Positions 8,228 to 13,080 of a stretch of 64,000 nt of DNA are shown here, piece by piece; within the stretch, counting starts at the first letter, position 1, and the number at the start of each line of letters is the position of its first letter. The translations under genes and the position numbers were made by a program. Source of the DNA: Escherichia coli (GTDB lineage: Bacteria > Pseudomonadota > Gammaproteobacteria > Enterobacterales > Enterobacteriaceae); the NCBI RefSeq assembly GCF_041248615.1, contig NZ_CP158426.1. The stretch is one strand, 5' to 3'. The notes under the pieces are model-generated. The model did not search any database. It had not been told where the DNA came from and saw only the letters and a program-made list of their open reading frames with translations.

Positions 8228-8900
8228 AAATGCGCCTGTAAGGCTCTGTTACCAGCCGCGCCCTAACAGGCGCATACGATCTGACATTTGCATTCAACTT
8301 CGTTACTTACGGCCCGTAAACGGGCTGCCCGGATAGGGAATCGATAACTGCTCCCCCATTTTATCCTCTTCAAGCTGGTGCTTTATGTAGTCCTGTATCT
8401 TCGCCGTGTTCTTACCCACCGTATCGACATAGTACCCTCGGCACCAGAACTCCCTGTTTCTGTATTTGAATTTCAAATCCCCAAACTGCTCGTAAAGCAT
8501 CAGACTGCTTTTCCCTTTCAGATATCCCATAAAGCCGGATACGCTCATTTTGGGTGGGATTTCCACAAGCATATGGATATGATCTGCGCAGCACTCTGCT
8601 TCCAGAATCCGTACGCTTTTCCACTCACACAGCTTTCTCAAAATACTGCCTATCGCCCTACGCTTCTCTCCGTAAAACGCCAGTCTTCGGTATTTCGGCG
8701 CAAAAACTATGTGATATTTACAGTTCCAGCGGGTGTGCGCTAAGCTCTTTTCGTCCCCCATTGGGACCCCCTTTTGATTTCTTGTTTGACACTTGCAGTT
8801 GCCAGACCGCAAGGTGTTTTAACAAATCAAAAGGGGTTTTAATAACTGGCTCAAAGCTGAAAGCTTTCCGGAACCCCCAGCCTAGCTGGGGGTTTTCTGT
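8228..8900 (-). mobile_element. IS200-like insertion sequence (IS200/IS605 family); boundaries approximate
   Basis: Contains an intact IS200-type tnpA, a structured 5' leader with an RBS-sequestering inverted repeat and a perfect terminal hairpin (8874..8892), plus subterminal palindromes near 8231..8273 and 8307..8330. This family makes no target duplication, so ends cannot be set precisely by eye. Confidence 0.8.
8303..8761 (-). CDS. tnpA: IS200-type Y1 (HuH) transposase TnpA, 152 aa
   Basis: Translation MGDEKSLAHTRWNCKYHIVFAPKYRR...HIHMLVEIPPK...GYYVDTVGKN is near-identical to the IS200 TnpA I recall (HuH motif HIHML, catalytic Tyr region). Track ORF 8303..8812 has an upstream extension; the Met at 8761 has a GGGGG Shine-Dalgarno. 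Confidence 0.9.
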   Translation of the reverse strand: MGDEKSLAHTRWNCKYHIVFAPKYRRLAFYGEKRRAIGSILRKLCEWKSVRILEAECCADHIHMLVEIPPKMSVSGFMGYLKGKSSLMLYEQFGDLKFKYRNREFWCRGYYVDTVGKNTAKIQDYIKHQLEEDKMGEQLSIPYPGSPFTGRK

Positions 8901-10208: not shown

Positions 10209-10967
10209 ATGCATTACCAGCCAAAACAAGATTTACTCAATGATCGCATTATCCTGGTGACGGGAGCCAGCGATGGTATTGGCCGTGAAGCCGCGATGAC
10301 GTATGCACGCTATGGTGCGACAGTGATTCTGTTGGGCCGTAATGAAGAAAAATTACGTCAGGTAGCCAGCCACATAAACGAAGAAACTGGACGTCAGCCA
10401 CAGTGGTTTATTCTCGATTTGCTGACCTGCACGTCCGAAGATTGCCAACAACTGGCACAGCGCATTGCCGTTAATTATCCGCGTCTGGATGGTGTTTTGC
10501 ATAATGCCGGATTGCTCGGCGATGTTTGCCCAATGAGCGAACAAAATCCGCAGGTCTGGCAGGACGTCATGCAGGTCAACGTTAATGCCACCTTTATGCT
10601 CACCCAGGCACTGCTTCCTTTATTACTCAAATCGGACGCCGGTTCACTGGTCTTTACTTCATCAAGCGTTGGACGTCAGGGACGAGCCAACTGGGGCGCA
10701 TATGCAGCGTCGAAATTTGCCACCGAAGGGATGATGCAGGTACTGGCCGATGAATATCAGCAGCGCCTGCGCGTCAACTGCATTAACCCAGGCGGTACGC
10801 GCACCGCAATGCGGGCCAGCGCCTTCCCGACCGAAGATCCACAGAAACTTAAAACACCCGCTGATATCATGCCGCTCTACCTCTGGCTGATGGGCGATGA
10901 CAGCCGCCGTAAAACCGGCATGACCTTTGACGCCCAACCGGGCCGTAAACCAGGAATTTCCCAATGA
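10209..10967 (+). CDS. yciK: Short-chain dehydrogenase/reductase YciK
   Basis: 252-aa ORF with Rossmann motif TGASDGIG and SDR catalytic YxxxK (YAASK); overlaps btuR by 4 bp. Confidence 0.93.
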   Translation: MHYQPKQDLLNDRIILVTGASDGIGREAAMTYARYGATVILLGRNEEKLRQVASHINEETGRQPQWFILDLLTCTSEDCQQLAQRIAVNYPRLDGVLHNAGLLGDVCPMSEQNPQVWQDVMQVNVNATFMLTQALLPLLLKSDAGSLVFTSSSVGRQGRANWGAYAASKFATEGMMQVLADEYQQRLRVNCINPGGTRTAMRASAFPTEDPQKLKTPADIMPLYLWLMGDDSRRKTGMTFDAQPGRKPGISQ

Positions 10968-11554
10968 GTGATGAACGCTACCAACAGCGTCAGCAGCGAG
11001 TGAAAGAAAAAGTCGATGCTCGTGTGGCCCAGGCCCAGGATGAACGCGGTATTATCATCGTTTTTACCGGCAATGGAAAAGGCAAAACCACCGCGGCATT
11101 TGGTACGGCAACTCGTGCAGTAGGCCATGGCAAAAAAGTGGGTATCGTGCAGTTTATTAAAGGCACCTGGCCTAATGGCGAGCGCAATCTACTGGAGCCA
11201 CATGGCGTTGAGTTTCAGGTGATGGCAACGGGCTTTACCTGGGATACACAAAATCGCGAATCTGATACCGCGGCCTGCCGTGAAGTCTGGCAACATGCCA
11301 AACGAATGCTGGCCGATCCTTCACTGGATATGGTTTTGCTCGATGAGCTGACTTATATGGTGGCGTATGATTATTTGCCACTTGAAGAAGTGGTGAAGGC
11401 GTTAAATGAACGTCCACATCAGCAAACCGTCATTATTACGGGTCGTGGTTGTCATCGGGATATACTTGAACTGGCGGATACGGTAAGTGAATTACGCCCC
11501 GTGAAACATGCGTTTGATGCCGGTGTAAAAGCGCAGATAGGGATTGACTACTAA
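10964..11554 (+). CDS. btuR: Cob(I)yrinic acid a,c-diamide adenosyltransferase
   Basis: 196-aa ORF with P-loop GNGKGKTTAAFG; matches BtuR/CobA. Confidence 0.93.
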   Translation: MSDERYQQRQQRVKEKVDARVAQAQDERGIIIVFTGNGKGKTTAAFGTATRAVGHGKKVGIVQFIKGTWPNGERNLLEPHGVEFQVMATGFTWDTQNRESDTAACREVWQHAKRMLADPSLDMVLLDELTYMVAYDYLPLEEVVKALNERPHQQTVIITGRGCHRDILELADTVSELRPVKHAFDAGVKAQIGIDY

Positions 11555-11559
11555 GTGAA

Positions 11560-11592
11560 AGCACCTCAAAAGAAGCCTCTTGAGGTGCTTTA
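11560..11592. terminator. Hairpin at btuR 3' end / islet 3' end (possible bidirectional terminator)
   Basis: Inverted repeat AGCACCTCAAAAG / CTCTTGAGGTGCT with a short loop, lying between two convergent gene ends. Confidence 0.5.
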
Positions 11593-11605: not shown

Positions 11606-11914
11606 TCAAGCGGCAATAGCGAAATTCAGAATACGTGTAATCTCATTCAAATGTCCCGGATATGCTTCATGATTCTCAGCGTCAACATCTTCAATAAATA
11701 ATATCAGTTCAGTAATTAACGCATTAGCATCGTCATAATTTATCCCGGCTAACTCTGGCGAAGTTTCAGTACCATAGTTAATCGTCAGGTTGTTCATAAC
11801 TGTGAGGATATGGATAAAATATTTATGACAAACATTACATGTGGTTTTATTACCCAAAGTATTATACAGCATATCAAGTAATGCCAGTATTCTACGGTTT
11901 TGCACATCGTTCAT
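11606..11914 (-). CDS. Hypothetical 102-aa protein (no signal peptide), second gene of the AT-rich islet
   Basis: ORF in AT-rich DNA, 10 bp downstream of the lipoprotein gene on the same strand; contains a Cys-x2-Cys-His motif (CNVCH); no family recognised. Confidence 0.6.
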   Translation of the reverse strand: MNDVQNRRILALLDMLYNTLGNKTTCNVCHKYFIHILTVMNNLTINYGTETSPELAGINYDDANALITELILFIEDVDAENHEAYPGHLNEITRILNFAIAA

Positions 11915-11924
11915 AAAAAGCCTC

Positions 11925-12926
11925 CTATAACATTATTCCGCTGGCAATAAGTAATTTTGCCAGCCCCTCAGACGCCTTTAACCCACTAATGACCTGTGCG
12001 CGTAATATTTCATTTAATCTTTTTTGTTCAGCTGCCGTGCGTGTTTTATTAACGTATAAGCTTTTTAGATAATCACCCTTATCTATAAAGGCATTTAAAG
12101 CCTCAATCGCAGGCATGGCAGGTGCCGATGCCTGTAGTCTGGTTTCATTCACATTGATTACTGAACTTAGAAACTCCTTCCTGTTTTTCAGAGTGTTAAA
12201 CTCTGTATTCTTAGAGTTTTTAGATGCTGTATTATAATAAAACATATTATCATGCACATTCGCAAAGGTATAATTTTCAATCTTATTGCTTTTTGTATAA
12301 ATATCATTGCGCAAAACCGCCATGTTCTTTATAAGTCTTACCCAGTTTTCATCTGCCGTTTTGCCTATTTTTCCAGAATTGACTTTAATTATATATAACT
12401 CATTGAAATAATTTACCAAATCTTTAACCGCTGCTGCAGATTGAACTAAATCTTTGCTATGTGAAACACCAAGTAGTGTTTGTGCGTTGTTTGCGTGATC
12501 CAGAGCCTGTTTAAGTAATGCCACTTGCTGACTTTCCGTAGTTGCCATATCCTTTGTCAGAAGTTCCACATAAGCGCTCATGCTATTAATGACTTCCATT
12601 GAAGCCAGTAATTTTTCTTTCTCGAAAGGGACTAATTGTACTTGTTTTGTATTTGGCCCTGAACGCTGGCATAATTTTCCGCCATTCCCATCACCGCCTA
12701 TATCAATGGTATAATCAGGTCGCAGAGCACAATCCGGATTAGTCGCGTAGAAATTAACAAGGAAGTTTTCACGAGAAGCATAGTATTGTTTAAAGAAACT
12801 TGCATTCGCCGCTACTGCTTTGTTACCCGCAGTAATAACAGTTTCAGCTTGTTCGTTTTTCAATGCTTCAGTTGCACAACCTGAAAGCATTAACAGCGAT
12901 AGAAATATTCCACTATATCTAATCAT
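11925..12926 (-). CDS. Hypothetical 333-aa predicted lipoprotein, first gene of the AT-rich islet
   Basis: N-terminus MIRYSGIFLSLLMLSGC has a hydrophobic core and an LSGC lipobox (signal peptidase II type); the rest is Asn/Lys-rich with no recognisable catalytic motif; codon usage is AT-biased. Confidence 0.7.
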   Translation of the reverse strand: MIRYSGIFLSLLMLSGCATEALKNEQAETVITAGNKAVAANASFFKQYYASRENFLVNFYATNPDCALRPDYTIDIGGDGNGGKLCQRSGPNTKQVQLVPFEKEKLLASMEVINSMSAYVELLTKDMATTESQQVALLKQALDHANNAQTLLGVSHSKDLVQSAAAVKDLVNYFNELYIIKVNSGKIGKTADENWVRLIKNMAVLRNDIYTKSNKIENYTFANVHDNMFYYNTASKNSKNTEFNTLKNRKEFLSSVINVNETRLQASAPAMPAIEALNAFIDKGDYLKSLYVNKTRTAAEQKRLNEILRAQVISGLKASEGLAKLLIASGIML

Positions 12927-13052
12927 AACCCACCTCTTGACGTTGAGTTTATCTCAGATAATTAAATAGTAATGTGGCTATTTCCGGGTATTATTCATAA
13001 GCAAGTATGAAATTAAATTAAAATACTGCGACTATTTATCATGCTTCAAATG

Positions 13053-13080
13053 AAGAAAAGGCCCCGCAGGGCCTTTATTT
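13053..13080 (-). terminator. Intrinsic terminator downstream of rluB
   Basis: Hairpin AAAGGCCC-CGCA-GGGCCTTT flanked by A/T runs, 16 bp after the rluB stop. Confidence 0.65.

What the first reader, a model, noticed from the sequence alone, without database searches (positions are those of the whole stretch)
11606..11914. Islet gene 2: 102-aa cytoplasmic partner with a CxxCH motif
A small ORF immediately downstream of the lipoprotein gene with no signal peptide. The motif TTCNVCHKYFIH (Cys-x2-Cys-His plus a nearby His) could bind a metal, and there is an acidic C-terminal half (EDVDAENHE). The 10-bp spacing to the upstream gene suggests co-expression. The pairing of an exported lipoprotein with a small cytoplasmic protein is reminiscent of effector/immunity or sensor/effector pairs, but this is only inference.
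Basis: inference. Interest (0 to 1): 0.5.

Follow-up and report, generated by a model that had tools for sequence, protein, structure and literature searches.

The report
Small partner gene of a variable lipoprotein
This is a real, conserved but uncharacterised E. coli gene for a small four-helix-bundle protein with a Cys-x2-Cys…His cluster. It is always encoded directly behind a highly variable lipoprotein gene in a two-gene islet carried by about a fifth of E. coli strains, and its function is still unknown.

Summary
The 102-codon ORF (minus strand, 11914→11606) is a genuine gene. Between the two main E. coli alleles, synonymous sites are saturated (pS 0.79) while pN is 0.14. An AGGAGG ribosome-binding site overlaps the lipoprotein stop codon. 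The lipoprotein→small-gene order is kept in Escherichia, in Citrobacter, and in a 35%-identical pair on a Duffyella conjugative element.

The islet sits between cobO/btuR and rluB. Of 5,426 complete E. coli genomes, 424 carry this allele, 776 a divergent one (including ST131), and 4,183 have an empty site.

The protein has no signal peptide. AlphaFold2 gives a confident four-helix bundle (pLDDT 91), and the acidic C-terminal half is conserved. C26, C29 and H88 are invariant. The His of "CxxCH" is Lys in Duffyella, and the "nearby His" (H35) is found in only a few strains.

No Pfam, NCBIfam, PADLOC, PHROG, PDB or viral relative exists, and the fold matches are generic.

The effector/immunity idea is not supported. 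No toxin domain was found. The small protein does not co-vary with the lipoprotein's hypervariable centre. A frameshifted small gene coexists with an intact lipoprotein gene.

Best guess, at low confidence: a metal- or redox-centred cytoplasmic accessory factor of the lipoprotein.

The parts
11606..11914 (-). Small gene, 102 codons plus stop. Product is an acidic (pI 4.6) cytoplasmic four-helix-bundle protein.
   Evidence: ORF listing; purifying selection; AF2 pLDDT 91.4, helices 3-21, 27-42, 60-78, 82-95; RefSeq WP_001000710.1 'hypothetical protein'
11825..11839 (-). Codons for Cys26-Asn-Val-Cys29-His30 (the CxxCH motif), at the N-terminus of helix 2
   Evidence: Sequence. C26 and C29 are invariant in all 9 lineage representatives including Duffyella; H30 is Lys in Duffyella.
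11651..11653 (-). Codon for His88 in helix 4, the third invariant potential ligand
   Evidence: Alignments A2 and A5
11921..11926 (-). Shine-Dalgarno AGGAGG overlapping the lipoprotein stop codon TAG (11927-11925), 6 nt before the ATG
   Evidence: Sequence; identical in both E. coli alleles; equivalent sites in Citrobacter and Duffyella
11925..12926 (-). Upstream partner gene: 333-aa lipoprotein with lipobox LSG|C17, +2 Ala, and conserved Cys66/Cys86. Residues 1-72 and 291-333 are conserved; residues 73-290 are hypervariable.
   Evidence: AF2 all-helical model, pLDDT 62.6
11558..11591 (.). 15-bp-stem hairpin between the convergent small gene and cobO; a probable bidirectional terminator, conserved in both alleles
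   Evidence: Inverted repeat I2; RNA fold -23.3 kcal/mol, z = -3.9; alignment A1
12927..13056 (-). Upstream non-coding region of the operon, 95-100% identical between alleles. It holds only a weak hand-picked promoter candidate: TTGAAG 13049-13044, 18 nt, TATTTT 13025-13020.
   Evidence: Sequence; the consensus scan found no minus-strand promoter at its threshold; conservation
13057..13076 (.). rluB terminator hairpin marking the rluB-side edge of the islet
   Evidence: Terminator scan; comparison with the K-12 empty site

Best explanation
**Shown.** The ORF is a genuine protein-coding gene. It is the second, translationally coupled cistron of a two-gene AT-rich accessory operon inserted between cobO and rluB. 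Its product stays in the cytoplasm and is predicted to fold as a compact acidic four-helix bundle. It carries an invariant Cys26-x2-Cys29 at the start of helix 2 and an invariant His88 in helix 4.

**Inferred.**
- These three residues form a buried structural metal (Zn-type) site or a redox-sensitive dithiol centre.
- The protein is a dedicated accessory partner of the lipoprotein encoded just upstream. Most likely it handles or binds the lipoprotein precursor, or its conserved C-terminal tail, before export, or it adjusts the lipoprotein's production.
- It is not a specificity-matched immunity protein for the lipoprotein's variable domain.
- The lipoprotein looks like a polymorphic envelope or surface protein under diversifying or balancing selection, and the small protein is the conserved part of the module.
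For: **Gene reality**
- pS 0.79 vs pN 0.14 between alleles; within-allele dN/dS 0.18-0.26.
- It is 102 aa in E. coli, E. albertii and E. whittamii, and 104 aa in Citrobacter.

**Coupling**
- The intercistronic gap is 9-14 nt, with GGAGG next to or overlapping the stop codon in three lineages.
- The pair is also kept in a Duffyella gerundensis conjugative element, at 35% (small protein) and 26% (lipoprotein) identity.

**Fold**
- AF2 pLDDT 91.4, pTM 0.84, four helices.

**Putative centre**
- C26, C29 and H88 are invariant across all lineages.
- Allele-2 proteins contain exactly two Cys and two His, all at these positions.
- By helical periodicity, C29 (with F33 and L37) and H88 (with Y85 and I92) lie on core-facing stripes near the same end of the bundle. 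This is inference only.

**Against a variable-domain immunity protein**
- Haplotype P0030 pairs an allele-1-type small protein (91-96% identity) with a central lipoprotein domain only 50% identical to allele 1.

**Persistence**
- The small gene stays intact where the lipoprotein gene is broken: IS1 insertion, premature stops, and the E. albertii type strain.
Against: - No experiment and no homologue of known function exists. Every family library and structure search returned nothing specific.
- The two proteins are predicted to end up in different compartments, so any contact would have to occur before export.
- Co-inheritance of the small protein with the lipoprotein C-tail may be plain physical linkage.
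- The small gene persists where the lipoprotein is a pseudogene, which fits an independent function as well as recent decay.
- A frameshifted small gene sits next to an intact lipoprotein gene, so it is not essential.
- H30 is not universally conserved.
Confidence: 0.33

Rival explanations
1. Cognate immunity or antitoxin protein. The lipoprotein would be a (polymorphic) toxin, and the small cytoplasmic protein would neutralise it in the producer, as SitI does for the SitA lipoprotein toxins or Im proteins do for colicin DNases.
For: - The small acidic helical protein is encoded directly after, and coupled to, an exported lipoprotein.
- There is a sharp boundary between a conserved N-terminus (codons 1-72, dN 0) and a strongly diverged remainder plus downstream gene.
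- Decay is asymmetric: at least 4 lineages have a broken lipoprotein with an intact small gene, against 1-2 the other way round.
- SitA/SitI gives a precedent for lipoprotein toxin plus cytoplasmic immunity (PMC5562445, PMC8546572).
Against: - No toxin, nuclease or enzyme domain was found in the lipoprotein. The only hit, HEPN_DZIP3, scores 20.6 bits against a cut-off of 27, occurs only in Citrobacter, and lacks an Rx4-6H motif.
- The variable part is central, not C-terminal, and its variants remain homologous.
- The small-protein type does not track the variable domain.
- A frameshifted small gene coexists with a lipoprotein 100% identical to the ST131 one in two independent sequencing runs.
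- No delivery system is linked to the islet.
Confidence: 0.12
2. Autonomous cytoplasmic metal- or redox-sensing regulator, or adaptor acting on a host target, that merely shares an operon with the lipoprotein.
For: - There is a conserved CxxC at a helix N-terminus plus an invariant His.
- The small gene remains intact in lineages where the lipoprotein gene is a pseudogene, including the E. albertii type strain.
- Helix 3 (ANxxITELxLFI) and the N-terminus are the most conserved parts, irrespective of the lipoprotein haplotype.
Against: - No DNA-binding or known regulatory domain was found.
- It is not a ZAS anti-sigma factor: Asn22 stands where the His of HxxxCxxC would be, and there is no sigma gene nearby.
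- The gene is never found without the lipoprotein gene or its remnant.
Confidence: 0.2
3. Two-gene exclusion or anti-phage defence module of mobile-element origin. The lipoprotein would sense an envelope event and the four-helix bundle would act as a membrane-disrupting executioner, like MLKL, HeLo or CC domains.
For: - The only distant homologue pair is cargo in a conjugative element, next to an Mrr-type restriction gene.
- The islet is patchy and AT-rich, and shows ancient polymorphism typical of conflict genes.
Against: - De novo designed helical bundles score equally well, so the match is a generic fold.
- There are no PADLOC or PHROG hits and no viral relatives.
- The rluB/cobO site holds only this islet or nothing, so it is not a defence hotspot.
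Confidence: 0.05
4. c-type cytochrome-like haem attachment through CxxCH (a four-helix-bundle class II cytochrome c).
For: CxxCH is invariant in Escherichia and Citrobacter, and the fold is a four-helix bundle.
Against: - There is no signal peptide, whereas haem c attachment by Ccm takes place in the periplasm (established knowledge).
- The motif is N-proximal.
- The His is Lys in the Duffyella homologue.
- There is no cytochrome family hit.
Confidence: 0.01
5. Spurious reading frame in AT-rich DNA.
For: There is no family or functional annotation. One RefSeq name, 'amino acid kinase family protein', is unsupported.
Against: - Synonymous sites are saturated while the protein is conserved.
- The start codon, RBS and length are conserved across genera.
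- AF2 gives a confident fold.
- By my own arithmetic, at 36% GC about 7% of random codons are stops, so 102 open codons has a probability of roughly 6e-4 per start.
Confidence: 0.01

Closest known systems
SitA/SitI polymorphic lipoprotein toxin-immunity cassettes of Myxococcus (PMC5562445, PMC8546572)
   Same: An outer-membrane-type lipoprotein gene is followed directly by a small cytoplasmic protein gene. The lipoprotein has a conserved N-terminal part and a diverged remainder. The module is mobile and accessory.
   Different: No nuclease or toxin domain was found. The variable region is central and its variants remain homologous. The small protein does not co-vary with it. E. coli has no known outer-membrane-exchange machinery. 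A natural frameshift of the small gene is tolerated. There is no sequence similarity.
Colicin/pyocin DNase immunity proteins (Im7/Im9 type; resemblance recalled from knowledge)
   Same: These are about 85-100 aa, acidic, four-helix proteins encoded immediately downstream of their partner gene, and their alleles diverge within a species.
Zinc-binding anti-sigma (ZAS) domains, HxxxCxxC four-helix bundles
   Same: A small helical bundle with a CxxC motif at a helix start and a distal His, possibly a zinc or redox switch.
   Different: The His of HxxxCxxC is replaced by an invariant Asn22. There is no adjacent sigma factor gene and no zf-HC2 hit.
MLKL / HeLo / plant CC and CC-R four-helix bundles
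   Different: Sequence identity is 7-13%, and designed bundles score the same. The protein is stand-alone, with no attached sensor or activation domain.
Proteins with conserved ends and a hypervariable centre under diversifying selection, such as flagellin or surface lipoproteins of pathogens. This applies to the partner lipoprotein and is recalled from knowledge.
   Same: The lipoprotein has conserved N- and C-terminal segments flanking a centre that is about 50% identical among three E. coli haplotypes. Synonymous divergence is as deep as between genera.
   Different: Surface exposure was not tested and there is no homology to any such family. None of those proteins is known to need a small cytoplasmic CxxC partner.

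Membership tests
SitA/SitI-type polymorphic lipoprotein toxin-immunity pair | The upstream protein has a type II signal peptide with a lipobox | tested here: met
   MIRYSGIFLSLLMLSG|C17, with Cys17 invariant in 15 homologues
SitA/SitI-type polymorphic lipoprotein toxin-immunity pair | A recognisable C-terminal toxin (nuclease) domain in the lipoprotein | tested here: not met
SitA/SitI-type polymorphic lipoprotein toxin-immunity pair | The immunity allele co-varies with the variable toxin domain | tested here: not met
   Haplotype P0030 combines a central domain 50% identical to allele 1 with a small protein 91-96% identical to the allele-1 type.
SitA/SitI-type polymorphic lipoprotein toxin-immunity pair | The immunity gene is indispensable while the toxin gene is intact | tested here: inconclusive
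   A 1-nt deletion in codon 21 of the small gene occurs in two sequencing runs alongside a lipoprotein 100% identical to ST131. The expression state is unknown.
SitA/SitI-type polymorphic lipoprotein toxin-immunity pair | A delivery route (TraAB outer membrane exchange) in the host | not tested
   SitA is reported only in species with traAB (PMC5562445). The presence of any analogue in E. coli was not examined.
c-type cytochrome (CxxCH haem attachment) | CxxCH conserved across the family | tested here: not met
   The Duffyella homologue has CDNCK.
c-type cytochrome (CxxCH haem attachment) | An export signal for periplasmic maturation | tested here: not met
   There is no hydrophobic N-terminal segment, and the N-terminus is helix 1 of the bundle.
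ZAS anti-sigma domain | H-x3-C-x2-C motif and an adjacent sigma factor gene | tested here: not met
   An invariant Asn22 occupies the His position. The neighbours are the lipoprotein gene and cobO.
Zinc-finger families (zf-FCS, RecR_ZnF) | Pfam score above the gathering threshold | tested here: not met
   zf-FCS scores 13 bits against a cut-off of 22.4, E = 0.07-0.1.
Colicin/pyocin immunity proteins | A sequence-family match | tested here: not met
   No Pfam hit and no PDB sequence hit.
MLKL/HeLo/CC four-helix-bundle executioner domains | A specific fold match beyond a generic four-helix bundle | tested here: inconclusive
Known anti-phage defence systems (PADLOC-DB v2) | An HMM match for either protein | tested here: not met
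   No hits for either allele of either protein.

The most novel reading that the evidence does not exclude
The islet would be a previously unrecognised two-component conflict module, for kin discrimination, exclusion or defence. A polymorphic envelope lipoprotein held in at least three ancient haplotypes by balancing selection would work with a new type of cytoplasmic Cys2-His four-helix-bundle protein. That protein would either license the lipoprotein or execute the response. The family would be unrelated to any described system and would be present in about a fifth of E. coli, including pandemic ST131.
Probability: 0.1. Interest if true: 0.7.

Novelty: new variant of a known kind. Interest (0 to 1): 0.38.

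Why it matters
The gene belongs to a narrow, entirely uncharacterised family, found in Escherichia and Citrobacter plus one conjugative element of Duffyella. It is nevertheless carried by about 22% of complete E. coli genomes, including the ST131 lineage.

The islet alleles are as diverged at synonymous sites as different genera, while the flanking core genes are nearly identical. The partner lipoprotein has a hypervariable centre. This pattern is typical of genes involved in interactions with phages, competitors or hosts.

Establishing what the small Cys-x2-Cys…His protein does would give a handle on the whole module. If it turns out to be only a structural accessory protein, the finding is a routine conserved hypothetical gene.

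Tried and rejected
**Family and structure searches**
- Pfam, NCBIfam, PADLOC and PHROGs gave nothing above threshold for either protein, either allele, or the Citrobacter and Duffyella versions.
- The weak HEPN_DZIP3 hit is rejected. It appears only in near-identical Citrobacter lipoproteins, is below the cut-off, and has no Rx4-6H motif.
- PDB sequence profiles found nothing.
- An exhaustive profile search of 1.84 billion representatives found only one distant relative.
- A word-indexed search with the lipoprotein profile found no new lineages.
- The genome-contig scan returned only E. whittamii and E. albertii.
- Phage, plasmid and viral-contig searches found no true hits.

**Artefacts set aside**
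- The 33%-identity 'plasmid' hit CP054249.1 is an error-ridden chromosome fragment.
- CP116919.1 has junk sequence at the locus.

**RNA and repeats**
- Rfam found only a chance SraG match at E = 0.97.
- The cistron junction has no conserved RNA structure.
- The islet edges carry no flanking direct repeats or target-site duplication.

**Motif readings rejected**
- The Arg7-Arg8 pair is not a Tat signal. It is not conserved in Duffyella, the following hydrophobic run is broken by Asp14, and the segment is helix 1 of the bundle.
- The cytochrome c and ZAS readings are rejected; see the membership tests.

**Literature**
- Searches by gene neighbours and protein accessions found nothing on this locus.

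Full report

The window is an E. coli chromosome segment: yciN, an IS200-type tnpA, sohB, yciK, cobO/btuR, the islet, rluB, yciQ. The reported ORF is at 11606-11914 but on the minus strand. Its ATG is at 11914 and its TGA stop at 11608-11606, giving 102 aa.

It follows a 333-aa gene (12926-11925) whose product starts MIRYSGIFLSLLMLSG|C, a classical lipobox. The junction reads TAGGAGGCTTTTTATG, so an AGGAGG Shine-Dalgarno site overlaps the lipoprotein stop codon and ends 6 nt before the ATG.

The motifs TTCNVCHKYFIH and EDVDAENHE are present. A 15-bp-stem hairpin (11558-11591; -23.3 kcal/mol, z = -3.9) separates the gene from the convergent cobO.

The islet is 34-39% G+C against about 50-55% in the flanks, and the small gene is 35.6%. 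K-12 and CFT073 have only a 39-bp spacer with a different terminator at this site.

**2. Is it a gene?**

Yes.
- RefSeq annotates it as a hypothetical protein, WP_001000710.1.
- A second allele of the islet exists, for example in ST131. It also encodes 102 aa, at 74% identity.
- Between the two alleles, synonymous sites are saturated (pS 0.79) while pN is 0.14. Within alleles, dN/dS is 0.18-0.26.
- The start codon, the N-terminal sequence MND(V/N)Q and the GGAGG site are conserved in Citrobacter (TAGGAGGCAATGATG) and in Duffyella (TAATTTTTGGAGGAAAAATG).

That test fails to refute. All listed islet-bearing complete genomes carry two annotated genes, and disrupted copies are rare exceptions (section 6).

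**3. Distribution**

| State of the rluB/cobO site in 5,426 complete E. coli genomes | Genomes |
|---|---|
| Empty site (rluB and cobO adjacent) | 4,183 |
| Window-type islet | 424 |
| ST131-type islet | 776 |

About 37 further genomes match the islet query only in part and belong to neither of these two counts. The site therefore holds this islet or nothing and is not a general cargo hotspot.

Protein searches found the small protein and the lipoprotein only in Escherichia (coli, albertii, whittamii and unnamed clades) and Citrobacter. They are always at the same rluB/cobO site and always adjacent.

An exhaustive HMM search of 1.84 billion representative proteins added one distant relative. 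P0043 is 95 aa, 35% identical, E = 1e-7. It lies in Duffyella gerundensis, inside a conjugative element with TraG-type coupling protein, RAQPRD, DUF3262 through DUF3438, and TraC_F_IV genes. There too it sits directly behind a 347-aa lipoprotein that is 26% identical to the E. coli one, and next to an Mrr-type restriction gene. The two-gene order is therefore the conserved unit.

**4. The protein**

There is no signal peptide or membrane segment. Charged residues at positions 3, 7, 8 and 14 break the N-terminus, and the most hydrophobic 15-mer is internal.

AlphaFold2 on a 14-sequence alignment gives pLDDT 91.4 and pTM 0.84. The model is a four-helix bundle with helices at 3-21, 27-42, 60-78 and 82-95.

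A charge dipole is conserved: the N-terminal half is +1 or +2, and the C-terminal half is -7 to -10 (-4 in Duffyella).

Residues invariant in every lineage include C26, C29, H88, N22 and most of helix 3 (ANxxITELxLFI). H30 is conserved in Escherichia and Citrobacter but is Lys in Duffyella. H35, the 'nearby His', is Leu in most sequences. Allele-2 proteins contain only two Cys and two His, all at these positions.

From helical periodicity, C29 and H88 lie on core-facing stripes near the same end of the bundle. A buried Cys2-His(+1) metal site or a redox-active CxxC is therefore plausible. This is inference only, because the model coordinates could not be inspected.

**5. Comparison with known families**

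Nothing specific was found.
- Pfam, NCBIfam, PADLOC and PHROGs gave no hit above threshold. zf-FCS scores 13 bits against a cut-off of 22.4.
- PDB sequence profiles gave nothing.
- There is no viral structural or sequence relative.
- A sub-threshold HEPN_DZIP3 hit in the Citrobacter lipoproteins lacks the catalytic motif and is discounted.
- The haem-c reading of CxxCH is rejected. There is no export signal, and the His is not conserved.
- The ZAS anti-sigma reading is rejected. Asn22 replaces the His, and there is no sigma gene.

**6. Evolution, and what it says about the pair**

Divergence between the window and ST131:

| Gene or segment | dS | dN |
|---|---|---|
| yciK | 0.09 | 0.002 |
| rluB | 0.135 | 0 |
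| cobO | 0.42 | 0.016 |
| Lipoprotein codons 1-72 | 0.30 | 0 |
| Lipoprotein codons 73-end | 1.63 | 0.34 |
| Small gene | saturated (pS 0.79) | 0.16 |

For comparison, rluB dS between E. coli and Citrobacter is 0.76. The islet haplotypes are therefore as old as genera, while the flanks are ordinary E. coli. The boundary at lipoprotein codon 72 is abrupt.

A third haplotype (P0030, locus L027) is a mosaic. Its central lipoprotein region (residues 73-290) is only 50-56% identical to either of the other alleles. Its last 43 residues are 98-100% identical to allele 1, and its small protein is 91-96% identical to the allele-1 type.

So the hypervariable element is the centre of the lipoprotein. The small protein does not co-vary with it and follows only the adjacent C-terminal tail. 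That tail, the ribosome-binding site and the start of the small gene form a local peak of nucleotide conservation, 85-88% against 55-75% around it. This argues against a specificity-matched immunity protein for the variable domain. It fits a polymorphic envelope protein with a conserved accessory partner, or simple linkage.

Natural knock-outs occur in both directions.
- **Lipoprotein broken, small gene intact (102 aa):**
  - an IS1 insertion (L023, L024);
  - a premature stop (L022);
  - a frameshift in E. albertii, including the type strain (L025, L026, L014);
  - a fragmented copy in a Duffyella-type element (L008).
- **Small gene broken, lipoprotein intact:** a 1-nt deletion in codon 21 of the small gene is present in two independent sequencing runs, next to a lipoprotein gene 100% identical to the ST131 one.

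Neither gene is therefore indispensable for the other's carriage.

**7. Best explanation and rivals**

The gene, the operon coupling, the cytoplasmic location, the predicted four-helix bundle and the conserved Cys-x2-Cys…His triad are shown by the sequence data and the model. The rest is inference.

I rate the candidate mechanisms as follows:
- **About 0.33:** a metal- or redox-centred accessory partner that acts on the lipoprotein precursor or its C-terminal tail, or on its production, before export.
- **About 0.2:** an autonomous redox or metal-responsive regulator or adaptor.
- **About 0.12:** a true immunity or antitoxin protein.
- **About 0.05:** an MLKL-like executioner in a defence or exclusion module.
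- **About 0.01 each:** haem c attachment, or a spurious ORF.

The remaining probability is for functions not considered here.

**8. Novelty and verdict**

The gene is already annotated as a hypothetical protein, so its existence is not new. It belongs to no described family. The nearest architectural analogue, the SitA/SitI lipoprotein toxin-immunity cassettes (PMC5562445, PMC8546572), fails on the defining features tested here.

The interesting aspect is population-genetic. This is an ancient, multi-haplotype, presence/absence polymorphism at a fixed site in about 22% of E. coli. As a single finding it remains a conserved hypothetical gene with a plausible but untested metal or redox centre, so interest is moderate to low (0.38).

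Noticed in passing
window 11925-12926 (-); loci L003, L027: The partner lipoprotein exists in at least three E. coli haplotypes. Their central 218 residues are only 50-56% identical to one another, while residues 1-72 are 93-100% identical. Haplotype P0030 is a mosaic with an allele-1 C-terminus. This looks like diversifying or balancing selection on an envelope protein.
   Followed up: partly
window 10964-11554 (+) cobO/btuR: cobO next to the islet has dS 0.42 between the window and ST131. yciK has 0.09 and rluB 0.135. This suggests the old haplotype divergence extends into the flanking core gene.
   Followed up: partly
window 8303-8812 (-): There is an IS200/IS605-type transposase ORF (…HTRWNCKYHIVFAPKYRR…) between yciN and sohB. 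CFT073 has an IS200C copy at the same relative position.
   Followed up: no
locus L004 1567-1875 (NZ_CM172811.1, WP_001000713.1): RefSeq names one allele of the small protein 'amino acid kinase family protein'. The only related signal is an 11-bit arcC hit against a cut-off of 358, so the name is unsupported.
   Followed up: yes
locus L006 4943-7220 (Duffyella gerundensis GCA_025881875.1): The only distant homologue pair is cargo in an integrative conjugative element. It lies between the coupling-protein/DtrJ-like genes and the RAQPRD pilus operon, adjacent to an oppositely oriented Mrr_cat restriction gene.
   Followed up: partly
loci L014 2898-4237 and L025 2501-3840 (E. albertii): In E. albertii, including type strain NBRC 107761, the lipoprotein gene is frameshifted into 244-aa and 96-aa pieces, while the small gene stays intact at 102 aa.
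   Followed up: partly
loci L019 2041-2348 and L020 729-1036: The same 1-nt deletion in codon 21 of the small gene is seen in two independent sequencing runs, beside an intact ST131-type lipoprotein gene.
   Followed up: yes
loci L015 (CP054249.1) and L021 (CP116919.1): Two public 'complete' records are unreliable at this locus. One is a frameshift-ridden chromosome fragment deposited as a plasmid. The other contains poly-G/poly-A junk in place of the lipoprotein gene.
   Followed up: yes
window 12952-13079 (+): There is a weak Rfam SraG match (21 bits against a gathering score of 50, E = 0.97) in the region upstream of the lipoprotein gene. It is most likely chance.
   Followed up: no
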